From a virus (Duplodnaviria > Heunggongvirae > Uroviricota > Caudoviricetes): DNA of 63,899 nucleotides. Made by a program: the position numbers. How positions within the stretch are numbered: position 1 is the stretch's first letter; each line of letters starts with the position of its first letter. The stretch lies in IMG/VR virus record IMGVR_UViG_643348545_000007, one strand, 5' to 3'. Of this stretch, positions 56,801 to 62,800 are shown in pieces.

Positions 56801-59800
56801 ATGCGGGCGATTGCAGAGCGTGTTGATCCGGAAACCGGCGAAACCCGTCGCGAAGTTGTTGAACGTCCGGTGCCTATGGCAATGATGGCGGATCGCTACT
56901 TCACCACCAAAAAGGACGGCAAAACTTACTACATCAAACTCCATGACCCGCGCCTGATGCGTGCGATGAAGAACATGGGGCCGGAAACCAGTAACGCCGT
57001 AATCCGTACGCTGGGGAAAGTTAACCGTTTCCTGGCAACGGTGAACACGTCGTATAACCCGGAATTTCTGGTCAGTAACTTCATCCGTGACGTGCAGACG
57101 GCGGTGATGAACCTGAAGGCTGAGCAGGGAAGGAGCGACGGTAAACTGAAAGGGCTGGATAACTTATCCGCCCTGGCTGTGGTGAAAGACAGCCGGTCTG
57201 CCATGTCTGCCGTATACGCCAGTCTGCGTGGTAAAACCCTCACGGGCAACGGTGCGCAGTGGCAGAAGGTGTGGAAAGAGTTTGTTGAGGATGGAGGTAA
57301 AACCGGCTGGTTTAACATGGGTGACCTTGAAGGCCAGCAGAAGGAAATGGATCGCCTTGTATCGCTGGCGAAGGGGGGATGGAAAGGCCAGAGTATCGGT
57401 GCATGGAATTCGTTCCTGAACCTTGTGGAGGATGCCAACGGTGCGGTTGAAAACGCACTGCGTCTTTCTGCCTATAAGCACGCCCGTGATGCCGGTTTGT
57501 CACGCCAGCAGGCGGCGTCTCTTGCCAAAAACATGACGGTGAACTTTAACCGTCGTGGTGAGCAGGGGGCGCTGATGAACTCGCTGTACATGTTCGCTAA
57601 CGCCAGCATTCAGGGGACGGCAAACCTTGTGAGAACCCTTGGGCACCTTAATGGTGACGGTCCGTTACTGGAGCGCCTTCGCTGGAAGAATCTCAATGTA
57701 CCGCAGAAAATCGCGCTTGCAGCTGTGGGAGCGGGTTATCTGCTTGGCTCGCTTAATCGGAGTGTGGCTGGGGAGGATGATGACGGGGTTAACTGGTATG
57801 ACAAGGTACCTGATCATGTGAAAGAGCGTAACCTCGTCATTATGAAATCGATGTTCGGGGGCAAGGCCGGTGAGTACTGGAGTATTCCTCTGCCTTACGG
57901 GTACAACGTTTTCTTCCTGCTCGGGCATACCGCTGAAGGTGTGGCGGCGGGTGACCTGACGGCGTCCCGTGCTGCCGGTAATGTTGTTGGTGGTGTGCTT
58001 GGTGCATTCAGCCCGATTGGCAGTGAGACGTCGGAAACCTTGTCCGGGGCATTGCTGAAAAACGCAGCGCCGACCATTCTGCGTCCGTTTGCGAATCTTG
58101 CCATGAACGAAAACTTCATGGGGGCGCAGATTTACCAGGAGAACATGCCGTTTGGTACACCAAAACCTGACAGCCAGCTGGGAAGACGTTCAACGCCAGA
58201 AGCGTACAAGGCGTTTGCATCCTGGCTGAATGCGTTCTCAGGTGGTAGCCAGTATCGTCCCGGCGCGGTGGATATCACACCGGAATCGCTGAAATTCTGG
58301 ATTGACTATATCTCCGGAGGGGCAGGGCGCTTCATTTCCAAAACCACGGATGCGGCGGTGAAATCGCTGAATGGTATTGATATACCGGAACAGCAGGTGC
58401 CCTTCCTGGGGAAAATTTCGGGTGAGGTGATGCCGTATGCAGACCAGCAGAAGATGTACGACCGGATGACAGAGGTTGCGCAGTATCACGCAGAGCTGAA
58501 GAGTCTGACCGGTGCAGAAAGAACGGCGTTCATTGACGAGAACAACGGAAAATTGTTGATGAACGGGCTTATGCAGGATACCCGGAAGAGACTGAAGGAT
58601 TTGCGCAAACAGCGTGATGCCATTTATGCCGACAGTTCTCTCAGTCTGGCGCAGCAGGCGGCGATGGTGAAATCGGTAGAGCGGGATATGAAGGTTGCCG
58701 TGGATCGCTTTAACCGCGAGTACAACAAAAAAGTGGGAGTGGATTAACAGAAATGGCCCCGTACGGAAGTGCGGGGCTGATTAAGAAATAAACACACATT
58801 AACCTGTAATAACCGGAGCTATTAACATATAGTCAGAAAGAGTATTTCATGTGAGACAGAGAGCCGATTTATGTTTAATGAAGAAAAAGTTGCGTAAATG
58901 GCAGCGTATTTGCTGAAAAAACATGGCGGATCTATGCGCTTCATTAAGCTGATGTATCTCTCTGACCGCAAAGCAATGGAGTTGTATGGTTTTCCCATTA
59001 GTGGTGATCATTATTTCTCTATGAACAAAGGACCCGTTTTATCGCAGACATATTCTTTGGTTAAGGATGGAAGTGAAAACGAGTACAGTCCGTGGGAATC
59101 ATGGATATCTGATGTAGCGGATCATAAGGTTGAAATGTGGCGTACATTTTCTTCTGTTGATGAGCTGGGGGAGTTATCGCCCGCAGAAATAGAGTCAATG
59201 GACATAATTTTTGGTCAATATGGAGGTTGGGATGCGTTCAGGCTTTGTGATGAAACTCACAGAATTTGCGGTGAGTGGCGCGATCCGCATGGTTCATCAA
59301 TTCCAATCAGCCTTAAGGATATATTTATTGCTCTTGGAAAGTTGCCAGAAGCAGCAACAGTAATGGCGAATAGCATTAATGCGCAAAATAATCTTGATAT
59401 ATTATTAGGTGATCTGAGGTAGTCGGGATGATGTTCAGCCCTTATTTGTATTTACCGGGGAGGGAAGATGTTTAATTCCGATTCCCCGGCTCCACAGGCC
59501 TAACCTAACTTTATGTAACAGTCCATGCAGGGCTGAAATCTGCCTGCTGAAATAACTCCGTTAGCCCGCTAATCTGCTTTAACCTCAGAACTTCATCCTG
59601 GTCCATCCCCAGTTCTGTTCCGATACGTTCATCAGTCCAGCCAAGACGTGAAAGATCTCTGACAATATCAGACATTGAGGTTATCTGGTGTTTCCCCCTG
59701 GCTCTGTTATGTCGGATAGTCGCGGCAATACGTGAGGTTTGTCCCTTTCGGTCTGGATTAATACAGGTTACTGGTAGCCAGCCTTTCAGGCGTTTTCCAG

Positions 59801-62800
59801 TAACTGTTCTTCTACCTAGTAACTGCCTATGAAAACCATCCACCACCAGGTAATGGCTTGTTTCTTCCGAAACAACAATTGGTTGAGTAAAACCGTCTTT
59901 TTCCAGAGATTGTTTCAGTAATTTTTTTTCGCTTGGGGCCATGACATTGGGATTATAATCGTTAGCGACAATTTCATCCGCTTTTACCCACAGCACACAG
60001 TCCACTGGTTCTTGAGCAAAGGGGCTGATCTCATGGAGTACGCAGCGGAGATGGTTCAGGGCCTGTATGGTTTTCTCTTCAGATTGTTCCTGACTGAAGT
60101 ACTGTCGAATCATCTTGCTCAGCACCTCCACCTCTGGTGTCACAGAATTCCCCATTCCTTCCTCCTTTCATTCATACGCTGCAGGTAACGTTCATAGTGC
60201 CGGGGTTTGTTGGGGCTGAAGGAGAGCGTTCGGCACCAGAAATCATTCTTTATGAGAGTCTTACAAATACGTCGCCAAGAGGGAACATCCCGGCAGCCCA
60301 GATCATTTTCCTGTTCATCCGGGATATCATCCGGGAATCCCCGGTTCTGATACCAGCGCAGGTAGACTGCTATCTTGTTGCGGTAGTGTTCAGCCGTTCT
60401 TTCCGGCATTACGTCCAGCAGGAAGAACGCATAGCTGCGCCAGGTATGATGGGATGGTTTTGACATCCGTTTACGCAGGGCAAAATAGGCCCCGCTTTCA
60501 TTGGCATAAAGAGCCCCACTGGCAGCACCAGATACTCGTTCACACATCCGTGCCCAAGTTTCTGGCTCCAGAACATGATAAAGCCATAGTCCCTTACGCT
60601 GTTCCGGGCCAAAAGGCTCACAGACACGCATATTACGTAGAGGAATGCCTGCACGGTACATCAAATCATACAGAGGATTGTAGATTGCACAGGTTTTAGC
60701 GTTATATACCCAGATATCGTTGGTTTTCCAGTCATACAGCGGATACATGGTGTAGTAAAAACCTTCAGGTGACGCCGTGGTCCAGGGTTTATCATCTGCA
60801 TATCTCAGTTTTCGTTGGGAAACCAGTCCCATAAATCTGTTAAGAGATTCATCCGCGCGGACTCCAGTCAGTATTGCCACGCTACATTGGTTACTTGCGA
60901 ACCAGGAAGAAAAAGCTGGGACAAATTCTTCAAAAGTCATGGCGTAGCGGTAAAAGGGGAAATACGCCATATCAGTAATAGCATCTTCCGGTGGCTGTCG
61001 AACCCACTCTACACCGGGCTCCCAGCATATCCACTCAGGCTGAAACTGCGAGACACCATTTACTGTCGTCAGGGGAAGTGCAACCCAGTAAAAGGTATCT
61101 GTTACATCTTGGTACATCATCCGCATCTTCTGTATATGATCAATGGTGCATTGATACTGGGCTTCCCAGTCAATGAACAATACAGAAAAACGACGTTTCT
61201 TCCTGTAGGCCACTTCGGCTACAAGATGGAAAAGTACAGTGGAATCTTTACCGCCAGAAAAAGATAAACATACAGAAGAGAATGTTTCAAACAACCATTC
61301 AATGCGGTGAATGGCTGCTGACAAAACATCTTCTCCAGTTCTGATTTTTGTTATAGTTACCGGCATACAATCTGATAAAAATAGCGAGGGTTTGCATTTT
61401 ACCTAGTAACGTTATGTAACTATTTTTTTGAATAAAGGCAATGAGATAATGATAAAAAATGTTTATCTAATGTACTGAGCTCTTCTCTTTATTGTATTAA
61501 CTCTTCGATTTCAGCGGCGTTGTCGTTCAGGCATGAAAAAAGGAGCCGAAGCTCCTTTGGTTTCAGAATTCAAATTGTCTTGCCCGCAGGCTTTTCAGCA
61601 TTGGCATGGCCCGCTGGATAACGGAACTTGACATGTCGAGACGTGTTACCTCCCTTAGTAGCGCGTCTCTGTTCTTCGTCACCATGTAGATAGTCTCAAA
61701 CGCAATGTCATACAGCTTGTTCGTGTATGAGGAGTTCAGCTCTTTCATTATGGGGTACAGCTGCTTGCTAAGGTCCTGGGCTTTTTCCATCCAGAGTTGC
61801 ATGTAGCAAAGGAGGATGATTTCCTCGGCGGTAAATTGTGGCTGTGATTCTGCTTGTACTGGCTGAATGTTGCGAAGTTTCTTTTCGCACTCGATGAAGT
61901 AGCGGCGGATCTGGCGGCCTTTTTCGTTTCGTTCAACCATCGCAAGCTCTTTGGCTGTGTCCAGGGTGAGGTGGTAGTCCTTGCGGCGGCGGCCTAGAGT
62001 TTTCGCCAAATTTGGCGAAAATAGAATGTAGTCTAAATTTTCTACGAATCCATACTCGTTTAGCCTGGCCCGTATCCAGTTAGAAAAATCTTTACCTACC
62101 TCTAAAAACCCATGCAAATCACGCGCGTTCACCAGAAGCGTAGGTTCATTTGAGATTGTACCTTCAAACACAGGGATGAGTTGAGTGGTCATGATGACCT
62201 CCTTTGGCTTTTTTCGAGAAATGCCACCACAAAATGTGGTGCCGGGAGGCTCGAAACGGCCCAAAAGATACCGCGGACTTATTCCCCTTGCGGGTGTTGT
62301 ATTCGTCGCCCTCCCGACATGGATCGGGGATGTGACCGCACATTGTGCCATCACTGAATGACAGGCATAAAAAATCCAACACTGACGGGGTTGGCTTAAT
62401 CCGCTTTTGGGAGGTTTTCGAGGTCTCGGCGCGGAGTATAGTCACTATTGGATGCTGTCGTCAACAGCGTGGTTACAATTCATTCCAAATGCGATAGTTT
62501 TTTATTTGCCATATTAAGCTATTGGAGACCCTGTATTTATCTGCAAGAACTGAATTTGGTACACTCATTTCATTAGCTCTTATAAATAGCACTTGCTCTT
62601 TAGTTAGTTTTGCTCGCCCATGTTTTTCATGACGTGCTTGGCGTTTTCGTTTCTGTCGATCAGCATTATTATCAAGGATTGTTCCTATTAGTAAATGCTT
62701 TGGATTACAACATGCAGGATTATCGCAAGAATGCCTGACAACCATGCCCGCAGGAATTTCTCCAATAAAAATTCGGTAAATTAACCTATGCGCGCCAGTT

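What the first reader, a model, noticed from the sequence alone, without database searches (positions are those of the whole stretch)
59511..61366. PAPS-reductase-like plus ParB-like gene pair (IbrAB-like) near the prophage right end
A minus-strand operon encodes a 408-aa protein with a PP-loop (SGGKDS) typical of PAPS reductase/DndC-like enzymes, followed with a 16-nt overlap by a 214-aa protein with a ParB/Srx N-domain motif (DGFHR). This architecture matches the IbrA/IbrB regulators of eib genes, and PP-loop plus ParB-like pairs also occur in DNA-modification systems, so the pair could act in regulation, DNA modification or anti-restriction.
Basis: partly seen in the sequence, partly recalled or inferred. 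Interest (0 to 1): 0.5.

Follow-up and report, generated by a model that had tools for sequence, protein, structure and literature searches.

The report
ibrA–ibrB prophage regulator gene pair
These two overlapping genes are the already-described E. coli ibrA and ibrB, which switch on prophage adhesin (eib) genes; here they share a prophage with such an adhesin gene, and how they work remains unknown.

Summary
The 408-aa and 214-aa proteins are residue-for-residue identical to the UniProt entries named IbrA (Q8KU24) and IbrB (Q8KU23). They are not merely IbrAB-like.

The pair lies about 2 kb from the right end of a 933W-like prophage inserted in wrbA. It sits next to an antirepressor gene. IbrA has a PAPS-reductase/FAD-synthase-type fold, an intact ATP PP-loop and a DUF3440 helical domain. 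It lacks the conserved cysteines of CysH or DndC. IbrB is a divergent ParB/Srx nucleotide-binding domain followed by a helix-turn-helix.

New context:
- The same prophage carries an eib-family adhesin gene (40122-41201). Its 0.8-kb upstream region is nearly identical to that of eibA.
- All 19 complete E. coli genomes with this ibrAB allele also carry eib genes, which occur in only 49 of 5426 genomes.
- IbrA and IbrB homologues are adjacent in 77 of 80 viral contigs; in the other three IbrA lies within 500 bp of the contig end. They also occur in phages of several phyla that have no eib genes.

The likeliest mechanism is inferred, not shown. IbrB would act as a ParB-like partner for a nucleotidyl-transferring enzyme, IbrA, working on DNA, with eib activation as the consequence. 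The pair is already known, so interest is modest.

The parts
60140..61366 (-). ibrA: 408-aa PP-loop (SGGKDS) PAPS-reductase-fold domain plus C-terminal DUF3440 helical domain
61241..61258 (-). PP-loop codons S37-G-G-K-D-S42 of IbrA (ATP pyrophosphatase signature)
   Evidence: Read from the sequence. The motif is 92-99% conserved across 78 family representatives.
59511..60155 (-). ibrB: 214-aa divergent ParB/Srx N-terminal (nucleotide-binding) domain plus C-terminal helix-turn-helix
   Evidence: ORF. Pfam ParB_N 0.0016, below the curated cut-off. phrog_2159 4.9e-91. PDB ParB (4umk) 0.004 and Noc (7ol9) 0.32. Exact match to UniRef100 'IbrB', RepID Q8KU23.
59826..59840 (-). DGFHR motif of IbrB (residues 106-110). 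It aligns with the GERR box of ParB.
   Evidence: Sequence. Alignment to H. pylori Spo0J. All five residues are at least 90% conserved in 63 distinct viral homologues.
59688..59717 (-). IRHNRARGKH motif of IbrB (residues 147-156). It probably corresponds to the ParB ENxxR box.
   Evidence: At least 90% conserved at every position except K155 (60-90%). The Noc alignment covers this stretch. The one-residue register shift that gives HNRAR = ENLQR is my inference.
59571..59639 (-). C-terminal helix-turn-helix region of IbrB (about residues 173-195, ELGMxxDEVLRLxQ)
   Evidence: Weak phrog_6831 'transcriptional regulator' match at residues 160-193. Predicted helices 161-170, 175-182 and 186-195 (low confidence). 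The region is almost invariant in 63 viral homologues.
60140..60155 (-). 16-nt overlap of the ibrA stop and ibrB start, with AGGAGG at 60166-60161. This suggests translational coupling.
   Evidence: Sequence. The same overlap geometry occurs in close homologues, in K-12 ybdN/ybdM and in Streptococcus phage PY1.
61367..61562 (-). AT-rich intergenic region upstream of ibrA (about 38% GC). A terminator-like hairpin follows the ant stop (GGAGC-TTCG-GCTCC plus a T run, 61555-61535). A candidate -10 TAAAAT lies at 61401-61396.
   Evidence: Read by eye; GC. The consensus scan found no full sigma-70 match and did not list the hairpin, so both elements are inferred.
40122..41201 (+). eib-family trimeric autotransporter adhesin gene (359 aa) on the same prophage: the candidate target of IbrAB
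   Evidence: YadA_anchor 4.6e-16. C-terminal 166 aa are 60% identical to EibA, and the signal peptide is similar. PDB hits to YadA anchor and EibD. DNA matches to P-EibA, P-EibC and P-EibD of ECOR-9.
39313..40121 (+). Upstream regulatory region of the eib-family gene. It is nearly identical to the region upstream of eibA in P-EibA, apart from a 115-bp insertion and an 11-bp duplication.
   Evidence: Pairwise alignment. Annotated stem-loops in P-EibA.

Best explanation
This is the ibrA-ibrB operon itself. It is an accessory (moron-type) two-gene module at the right end of a 933W-like prophage in wrbA. It probably has its own promoter, and the two genes are probably translationally coupled. Genetically, according to Sandt et al. 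2002 (recalled from the abstract; the paper was not held), both products together activate otherwise poorly expressed prophage eib adhesin genes in trans. One such gene, with an eibA-type upstream region, lies 18 kb away on the same prophage. Mechanism (inferred): IbrA is not a sulphate-assimilation enzyme. It is an ATP-using PP-loop nucleotidyl-transferase or ATP pyrophosphatase. IbrB is a ParB/Srx-fold NTP-binding protein with a helix-turn-helix that acts as its obligate partner on DNA. IbrB would load or activate IbrA on double-stranded DNA, as ParB-like partners do for phage thymine dioxygenases and for DpdA. The resulting covalent mark or DNA-bound complex would relieve silencing of AT-rich prophage genes such as eib. 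Shown here: identity, domain content, obligate pairing, co-occurrence with eib. Inferred: complex formation, DNA as substrate, chemistry, and how transcription rises. My confidence is about 0.98 for identity and about 0.35 for the DNA-directed mechanism.
For: Identity: both proteins match IbrA and IbrB exactly, and phage PhiR5_2 annotates the pair as such. Enzyme: the PP-loop SGGKDS and the D66/E68/R170/E173/S174/D212/D217/N230/Y233/R247/R277 set are conserved across 78 representatives of 50%-identity clusters. The model's best structural matches are FAD synthase, APS/PAPS reductases and CysD, then TilS. Obligate pair: in 77 of 80 IMG/VR loci an IbrB homologue lies adjacent on the same strand; in the other three IbrA lies 376-462 bp from the contig end. 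Gene order varies (A-B, B-X-A) but the linkage does not. Not eib-specific: IbrA homologues occur in 220 cultured phage records, including Flavobacterium, Mycobacterium, Streptococcus, Arthrobacter and Bacillus phages, and in a Heimdallarchaeal virus. The IbrB helix-turn-helix is nearly invariant across these viral homologues. That argues against a promoter-specific activator and for a generic target. DNA link: the best PHROG match of IbrB outside its own family is a DNA methyltransferase family, over the ParB-like region of IbrB (phrog_498, 7.9e-9). ParB-like proteins are proven activators of phage DNA T-dioxygenases on dsDNA (PMC13229309). DpdB is a ParB-like ATPase needed for dPreQ0 insertion (PMC12839542). 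A GNAT acetyltransferase or a conserved 130-aa protein is inserted in the cassette in many phages, which suggests a multi-step modification pathway. eib link: an eib-family gene with an eibA-type upstream region lies on the same prophage. All 19 genomes with this allele carry eib genes, which occur in 49 of 5426 genomes.
Against: No modified base, IbrB binding site, NTP binding or IbrA-IbrB complex has been shown here or in any paper I could find. The literature offers only the 2002 genetics and annotation. The closest solved folds to IbrA act on small nucleotides (FMN/ATP, sulphate/ATP, PAPS), not on nucleic acids. The IbrB model was too poor to use (pLDDT 47). The DUF3440 domain matched nothing. 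The 19/19 co-occurrence is inflated by clonal relatedness, and in at least seven of the 19 genomes eib and ibrAB lie about 20 kb apart, consistent with carriage on one prophage. A diverged ibrAB-like allele occurs in about 36% of E. coli genomes, and the paralogues ybdN/ybdM lie between chromosomal genes in K-12. Most of those strains lack eib, so eib cannot be the general target.
Confidence: 0.6

Rival explanations
1. Small-molecule switch. IbrA makes a nucleotide-derived small molecule by adenylyl transfer, as FAD synthase and ATP sulfurylase do. IbrB is a ligand- or NTP-gated helix-turn-helix transcription factor that responds to it. The pair would be an enzyme-plus-sensor regulatory module with no nucleic-acid modification.
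Against: A sequence-specific regulator should have a variable recognition helix, yet the IbrB helix-turn-helix is nearly invariant across phages of unrelated hosts. Lytic-type phages carry the pair in or beside replication and early modules. No candidate operator shared between the eib and ibrAB upstream regions was found.
Confidence: 0.22
2. Phage self-protection or anti-defence. The pair modifies the phage's own DNA (or host DNA) to escape restriction or other host immunity. eib activation would be an incidental side effect.
For: The pair is widespread in phages of many phyla, including virulent ones. In Streptococcus thermophilus Brussowvirus it lies between the lysin and the antirepressor/cro genes, and in the window it lies in the variable right arm with Ant, a Panacea-domain protein and an HNH endonuclease. 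PP-loop plus ParB-superfamily pairs work in DNA phosphorothioation. There are weak BrxP and DndC profile hits.
Against: No cysteine desulfurase, DndD/E, PglZ or nuclease partner is nearby. The DndC cysteine set is absent. Profile scores are far below family cut-offs. The paralogues ybdN/ybdM lie between chromosomal genes in K-12. No experimental data exist.
Confidence: 0.13
3. Auxiliary metabolic gene. IbrA is a genuine PAPS reductase that boosts host sulphur assimilation, as the PGAP and PHROG names imply.
For: The annotation reads 'phosphoadenosine phosphosulfate reductase'. The protein has the PAPS_reduct Pfam domain and fold.
Against: NCBIfam CysH, PAPS-reductase and CysD models score 25-34 bits against cut-offs of 154-413. 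No conserved catalytic cysteine exists; the only Cys-rich column is Ala in this protein. IbrA keeps the full SGGKDS PP-loop, which is typical of ATP-using members; from my own knowledge, CysH lacks it. The obligate ParB-like partner has no place in sulphate reduction.
Confidence: 0.02
4. Partition. IbrB is a ParB centromere-binding protein for a plasmid-like state of the phage.
For: There is a weak ParB_N/Noc match, and many records carry 'ParB-like partition protein' annotations.
Against: The ParB_N score is below the Pfam cut-off. GERRxRA is replaced by DGFHR. No ParA gene is nearby. The prophage has an integrase and sits in wrbA. The invariant partner is a PP-loop enzyme, not an ATPase of the ParA type.
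Confidence: 0.01

Closest known systems
IbrA/IbrB of E. coli ECOR-9 (immunoglobulin-binding regulators; Sandt, Hopper and Hill 2002, J Bacteriol 184:3640; UniProt Q8KU24/Q8KU23)
   Same: Both proteins are identical in sequence. The genes overlap. An antirepressor gene and Stx-phage-like DNA are adjacent. In strain S1-CAM-02-A the same module lies beside ynfF. As I recall from the 2002 abstract, that is about the map position (min 35.8) of the ECOR-9 IbrAB island.
   Different: Here the pair lies in an apparently complete 933W-like prophage inserted in wrbA, not in an 'island'. An eib-family gene sits on the same element.
YbdN/YbdM of E. coli K-12 (b0602/b0601)
   Same: Same two-domain proteins, same order and overlapping genes. 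IbrA is 57% identical to YbdN and IbrB 61% identical to YbdM.
   Different: ybdNM lies between chromosomal genes, next to the LysR-type regulator gene citR/ybdO, not in a prophage. Its function is also unknown.
DndC/DndB of DNA phosphorothioation systems
   Same: A PP-loop, PAPS-reductase-like enzyme is paired with a ParB-superfamily protein (DGQHR motif in DndB versus DGFHR here). DndB is reported as an ATP-modulated regulator.
   Different: IbrA lacks the 4Fe-4S cysteine triad and the cysteine dyad. The DndC model scores 17.8 bits against a 290-bit cut-off, and no DndB model hit was found. No DndA, DndD or DndE partners are present.
ParB-dependent phage DNA-modifying enzymes (5mYOX176/ParB176 thymine dioxygenase; DpdA/DpdB 7-deazaguanine insertion)
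   Same: A mobile-element-encoded orphan ParB-fold protein is the obligate, cognate partner of an enzyme acting on dsDNA. GNAT and other hypermodification genes occur in related cassettes.
   Different: The enzyme partner here is a PP-loop ATPase, not a dioxygenase or transglycosylase. [quoted passage not shown] DNA modification by IbrAB is unproven.
BrxP (PAPS-reductase-like protein of type 4 BREX)
   Same: Weak similarity over the PP-loop region (PADLOC BrxP 1.6e-7, residues 17-96).
   Different: The match covers only about 80 of 779 profile positions. No PglZ, BrxC or cysteine desulfurase is present. BrxP has additional domains.
CysH, CysD and the FAD synthase PAPS-reductase-fold domain
   Different: Sequence identity is 15-22%. 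IbrA has no catalytic cysteine, an extra 170-aa DUF3440 domain and a ParB-like partner.

Membership tests
IbrA/IbrB (eib co-activators) | Sequence identity of the large protein to deposited IbrA | tested here: met
   The exact full-length look-up returns the UniRef100 cluster 'IbrA', RepID Q8KU24_ECOLX.
IbrA/IbrB (eib co-activators) | Sequence identity of the small protein to deposited IbrB | tested here: met
   The exact full-length look-up returns the UniRef100 cluster 'IbrB', RepID Q8KU23_ECOLX.
IbrA/IbrB (eib co-activators) | Overlapping ibrA-then-ibrB genes within Stx-phage-like DNA that carries antirepressor genes | tested here: met
   16-nt overlap. AntA/P22_AR_C antirepressor at 61563-62354. 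933W-family matches.
IbrA/IbrB (eib co-activators) | Both genes together raise Eib protein expression from prophage eib genes | not testable with these tools
   Indirect support only: an eib-family gene with an eibA-type upstream region on the same prophage, and 19/19 co-occurrence with eib genes.
PAPS reductase (CysH) / ATP sulfurylase CysD | Score at or above the curated family cut-off | tested here: not met
   NCBIfam PRK02090 32.9 bits versus 154; TIGR02057 31.2 versus 254; CysD 33.9 versus 195.
PAPS reductase (CysH) | Conserved C-terminal catalytic cysteine | tested here: not met
   No cysteine of the window protein exceeds 49% conservation in 78 family representatives. The only Cys-rich column (position 96) is Ala here.
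PAPS-reductase-fold / PP-loop ATP pyrophosphatase superfamily | Adenine-nucleotide alpha-hydrolase fold with an SGGxDS PP-loop | tested here: met
DndC (DNA phosphorothioation) | Equivalog HMM score; 4Fe-4S cysteine triad and cysteine dyad; dndA/D/E neighbours | tested here: not met
   TIGR03183 scores 17.8 bits versus 290.4. No conserved cysteines. No such neighbours.
DndB / DGQHR-domain proteins | Match to the DndB or DGQHR profile | tested here: not met
   The only NCBIfam hit for IbrB at E <= 0.01 is nucleoid_noc at 22.7 bits. I assume from memory that the library holds the DndB and DGQHR models. The DGFHR motif resembles DGQHR only locally.
Chromosome/plasmid partition ParB | ParB_N above the Pfam cut-off, a GERRxRA box, and an adjacent parA | tested here: not met
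   ParB_N 18.9 bits versus 26.3. DGFHR stands in place of GERR. No ParA-like ORF nearby.
BREX type 4 (BrxP) / Dpd (DpdB) defence systems | Full-length match to system models, with partner genes present | tested here: not met
   BrxP match of 28 bits over residues 17-96 only. IbrB has no PADLOC hit at E <= 0.01. I do not know whether DpdB models are in that PADLOC release. No PglZ or TGT genes are nearby.
ParB-fold partner of a DNA-modifying enzyme (as ParB176 or DpdB) | Partner-dependent modification of dsDNA | not testable with these tools
   Only the architecture parallel (obligate adjacency) and the literature precedent are available.

The most novel reading that the evidence does not exclude
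IbrA-IbrB would be a phage-wide, ParB-guided PP-loop enzyme system that places a so-far undescribed covalent mark on DNA. This could be adenylylation-dependent base or backbone chemistry, extended in some phages by a GNAT or by the conserved 130-aa 'X' protein. eib activation in E. coli would be an epigenetic read-out of that mark. K-12 YbdN/YbdM would be a domesticated chromosomal copy.
Probability: 0.3. Interest if true: 0.7.

Novelty: already known. Interest (0 to 1): 0.3.

Why it matters
As a finding it is ordinary. [quoted passage not shown]

The gap is in mechanism. A very widespread, tightly conserved phage gene pair has had no biochemical explanation for over twenty years. It has 317 clusters at 50% identity with E below 1e-30 and occurs in phages of several bacterial phyla. 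Diverged alleles are in about a third of E. coli genomes, and a paralogous pair (ybdN/ybdM) lies in the K-12 chromosome.

This window and the plaque-forming phage PhiR5_2 carry regulator and candidate target on one element. That makes a clean experimental system for testing whether a ParB-fold protein plus a PP-loop enzyme modifies DNA or acts as a nucleotide-gated transcription switch. It could also show how prophages control adhesins relevant to LEE-negative STEC.

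Tried and rejected
- Structure of IbrB: the AlphaFold2 model from a 29-sequence alignment was unusable (pLDDT 47), so I ran no fold search on it.
- PDB by sequence: nothing closer than E = 0.001 for IbrA or 0.004 for IbrB.
- Promoter and terminator scan: it found no sigma-70 consensus in the ibrA upstream region and missed the hairpin after ant. Those elements are eye-read only.
- Possible IbrB operator: the 16-nt repeat ATACAGAATTTTCGTA occurs twice upstream of the eib-family gene and nowhere else in the window. 9 of 100 shuffles gave at least two hits, so I claim no binding site.
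- Defence-system models: only weak partial BrxP and DndC hits.
- Fusion proteins: long IbrA homologues (P0242, P0287, P0345, P0358, P0367, P0377, P0308, P0383) showed no informative extra Pfam domain. The exceptions are a likely artefactual ABC fragment and a possible GNAT tail. A roughly 240-aa insertion in P0358 looked intein-like, but Pfam did not confirm it.
- Third cassette gene 'X': no Pfam or PHROG family and no homologue in the window.
- Literature: the primary paper (PMC135156) and Maindola et al. 2014 (PMC4241021) are not held. Statements about them rest on my memory of the abstracts and on citing papers. Searches for IbrA/IbrB, DUF3440, ybdN/ybdM and PAPS reductase plus ParB found no mechanistic study.
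- Rejected readings: sulphur-metabolism gene and partition protein (see rival explanations).

Full report
**Observation**

The window has two minus-strand ORFs at exactly the reported coordinates: 60140-61366 (408 aa) and 59511-60155 (214 aa). The sequence shows the 16-nt overlap ATGGGGAATTCTGTGA. An AGGAGG ribosome-binding site lies five bases before the downstream ATG. SGGKDS is at residues 37-42 of the large protein and DGFHR at residues 106-110 of the small one.

These are real genes. Pfam gives DUF3440 (5e-33) and PAPS_reduct (1.5e-16) for the large protein, and a sub-threshold ParB_N match (0.0016) for the small one. PHROGs gives 5.8e-86 and 4.9e-91 to a 'PAPS reductase' family and a 'ParB-like' family.

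**What it is**

An exact-sequence look-up in a 15-billion-protein collection shows that both proteins already exist on 1000 or more public contigs. They belong to the UniRef100 clusters named IbrA (RepID Q8KU24_ECOLX) and IbrB (RepID Q8KU23_ECOLX). The pair is therefore ibrA-ibrB itself, not a look-alike.

In RefSeq, 19 complete E. coli genomes carry the locus at 98.8% identity or better. PGAP names the products 'phosphoadenosine phosphosulfate reductase' and 'IbrB-like domain-containing protein'. About 1970 of 5426 genomes carry 80-90%-identical alleles. Phage PhiR5_2 (PV340546), listed with K-12 MG1655 as host, has the locus at 98.8% identity with CDSs annotated IbrA and IbrB. K-12 itself has the paralogous overlapping pair ybdN/ybdM, at 57% and 61% identity.

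**Setting**

Window 1-579 (-) encodes WrbA with a replaced N-terminus. The last kilobase of the window is the ymdF locus. The window is therefore a 933W-like prophage filling the wrbA site, and ibrAB lies about 2 kb from its right junction.

The neighbours of ibrAB are:
- a 2787-aa polyvalent virion protein with LPD5, LPD38, LPD1 and MuF_C domains;
- an orphan SocA/Panacea-domain gene convergent with ibrB;
- an AntA/P22-type antirepressor upstream, followed by a hairpin plus T-run read by eye;
- an HNH endonuclease.

The ibrA upstream region is AT-rich, about 38% GC. The consensus scan found no canonical promoter there, so a separate promoter is likely but not shown.

In strain S1-CAM-02-A the same ibrAB-ant module lies beside ynfF. 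As I recall from the 2002 abstract, that is about where the 'IbrAB island' of ECOR-9 was mapped (min 35.8). If so, the island would be the right arm of a prophage of this type.

**The link to eib**

ORF 40122-41201 (359 aa) has a YadA anchor. Its signal peptide and its last 166 residues resemble EibA, at 60% identity over that C-terminal stretch. It also matches EibD in the PDB.

Its DNA matches P-EibA, P-EibC and P-EibD of ECOR-9. The roughly 800 bp upstream are nearly identical to the eibA upstream region, apart from a 115-bp insertion and an 11-bp duplication.

eib-type sequences occur in only 49 of 5426 complete genomes, usually in several copies. All 19 genomes carrying this ibrAB allele are among them. 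The naive hypergeometric P is 10^-40.6. It is heavily inflated by clonal relatedness and by the fact that, in at least seven of the 19 genomes, the best eib match lies about 20 kb from ibrAB, consistent with carriage on one prophage.

This is the best available in-silico support for the 2002 genetic claim that IbrA and IbrB activate eib genes. I could not read that paper. It is cited.

**Anatomy and family**

Across 78 representatives of 50%-identity clusters, the PP-loop and a set of acidic, arginine and aromatic residues are conserved. No cysteine set is conserved. The single Cys-rich column is Ala in this protein. Curated CysH, CysD and DndC models score an order of magnitude below their cut-offs.

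IbrA is thus an ATP-using PP-loop enzyme. It is neither a PAPS reductase nor a DndC.

*IbrB.* It aligns with ParB and Noc across the nucleotide-binding domain. In 63 distinct viral homologues the following are almost invariant: NDYNPN, DGxTQP, DGFHR, TIRHNRARGKH and the helix-turn-helix ELGMxxDEVLRLxQ.

**Obligate pairing and breadth**

Of 80 IMG/VR loci encoding an IbrA homologue (46-100% identity), 77 have an IbrB homologue adjacent on the same strand. In the other three, IbrA lies 376-462 bp from the contig end.

Gene order differs between loci. Some have A then B, overlapping or close. Others have B-X-A. X is a conserved protein of about 130 aa with no known family (43 loci). A GNAT acetyltransferase is present in 14 loci. 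Neither is in the window. Other neighbours vary and are mostly replication or early genes.

IbrA-like genes occur in 220 cultured phage records, including Flavobacterium, Mycobacterium, Streptococcus, Arthrobacter and Bacillus phages. In Streptococcus phages the pair lies after the lysis genes, beside helicase or antirepressor genes. A Heimdallarchaeal virus also has the pair. An all-against-library HMMER search finds 317 clusters at E below 1e-30.

**Mechanism (inference)**

The pair is ancient, is always linked, and occurs in viruses with no eib genes. The putative DNA-reading helix of IbrB does not vary with the host. A promoter-specific activator is therefore unlikely, and a generic nucleic-acid-directed activity is more likely.

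Several precedents fit this reading:
- ParB-fold proteins on mobile elements are versatile NTP switches.
- DpdB is the ParB-like ATPase needed for dPreQ0 insertion.
- A 2026 study showed that a phage thymine dioxygenase needs its cognate ParB-like protein to act on dsDNA.
- DndB and DndC are another ParB-superfamily plus PP-loop pair.
- The best PHROG match of IbrB outside its own family is a DNA methyltransferase family, matched over the ParB-like region of IbrB.

I therefore favour a model, at about 0.35, in which IbrB brings or activates IbrA on DNA. IbrA would use ATP to adenylate and thereby modify a DNA position, or a DNA-bound partner. eib de-repression would be the consequence.

The main rival, at about 0.22, is a small-molecule or NTP-gated transcription switch. 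It is favoured by the fact that the nearest folds to IbrA act on small nucleotides. Sulphur metabolism and plasmid partition are effectively excluded.

**Novelty and verdict**

The gene pair, its name, its architecture and its link to eib are all in the literature and in the annotation pipelines. The finding is already known.

This analysis adds four things:
- exact identity of both proteins to IbrA and IbrB;
- placement of the module in a wrbA-integrated 933W-like prophage that also carries an eib-family gene with the eibA upstream region;
- the 19/19 co-occurrence with eib genes;
- family-level evidence that the pair is an obligate enzyme plus ParB-fold module with optional third genes, lacks the CysH and DndC chemistry, and has an invariant helix-turn-helix.

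The mechanism remains open and is experimentally tractable with phage PhiR5_2.

Noticed in passing
window 39313-41201: An eib-family trimeric autotransporter gene (359 aa, YadA anchor). It has a passenger domain unlike EibA, but its 0.8-kb upstream region is nearly identical to that of eibA in P-EibA of ECOR-9. A 115-bp insertion duplicates the 16-mer ATACAGAATTTTCGTA and a GC-rich hairpin.
   Followed up: partly
window 50384-58747: A 2787-aa polyvalent protein with LPD5, LPD1, MuF_C and LPD38 domains lies just upstream of the accessory region. It is typical of 933W-like phages. Proteins of this class are thought to be injected with the DNA.
   Followed up: partly
window 58898-59422: An orphan SocA/Panacea-domain protein (174 aa), convergent with ibrB. 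I saw no adjacent toxin-sized ORF. In strain S1-CAM-02-A an IS3 element interrupts this spot (L002).
   Followed up: no
window 62473-62910 and 61563-62354: An HNH_3 homing-type endonuclease gene and an AntA/P22AR-type antirepressor gene lie in the same leftward-transcribed block as ibrAB. Antirepressor genes also sit near the IbrAB pair in Streptococcus phage CHPC1230 (L084).
   Followed up: partly
IMG/VR loci, e.g. L042:4613-4990, L037:4622-5014, L032:4604-4990: In 43 of 80 viral loci a conserved protein of about 130 aa lies between the ibrB-like and ibrA-like genes. Its motif is W..SCEA.L....N..AW.G.A.C....PE..TR.AW..L...Q..AN. It has no Pfam or PHROG family and is absent from the window.
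   Followed up: partly
IMG/VR loci, e.g. L029:6208-6630, L022:3723-4136, L038:4568-5011: In 14 of 80 viral loci a GNAT acetyltransferase is inserted in the ibrA/ibrB cassette (Pfam Acetyltransf_1, 5e-9). This hints at a multi-step pathway.
   Followed up: partly
window 61079-61081 (IbrA residue 96): The only column of the IbrA family that is mostly cysteine (86% of 78 representatives) is alanine in this protein. All 31 sequences of the 63-92%-identity alignment, which are mostly from Enterobacterales, carry the non-cysteine motif (A1 consensus YWVALPL).
   Followed up: partly
window 1-1910 and 63696-63899: The prophage is inserted in wrbA, the classical 933W site, and leaves a WrbA ORF with a new N-terminus. 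The next ORF (576-1910, 444 aa) is probably the integrase, which I did not check. ymdF lies at the right edge.
   Followed up: partly
L002 (NZ_CP145707.1 2486366-2512766): A 99.8%-identical ibrAB-ant module lies beside ynfF and a truncated 4Fe-4S protein gene. This suggests that the 'IbrAB island' described in ECOR-9 is the right arm of a prophage of this type inserted in the ynf operon.
   Followed up: partly
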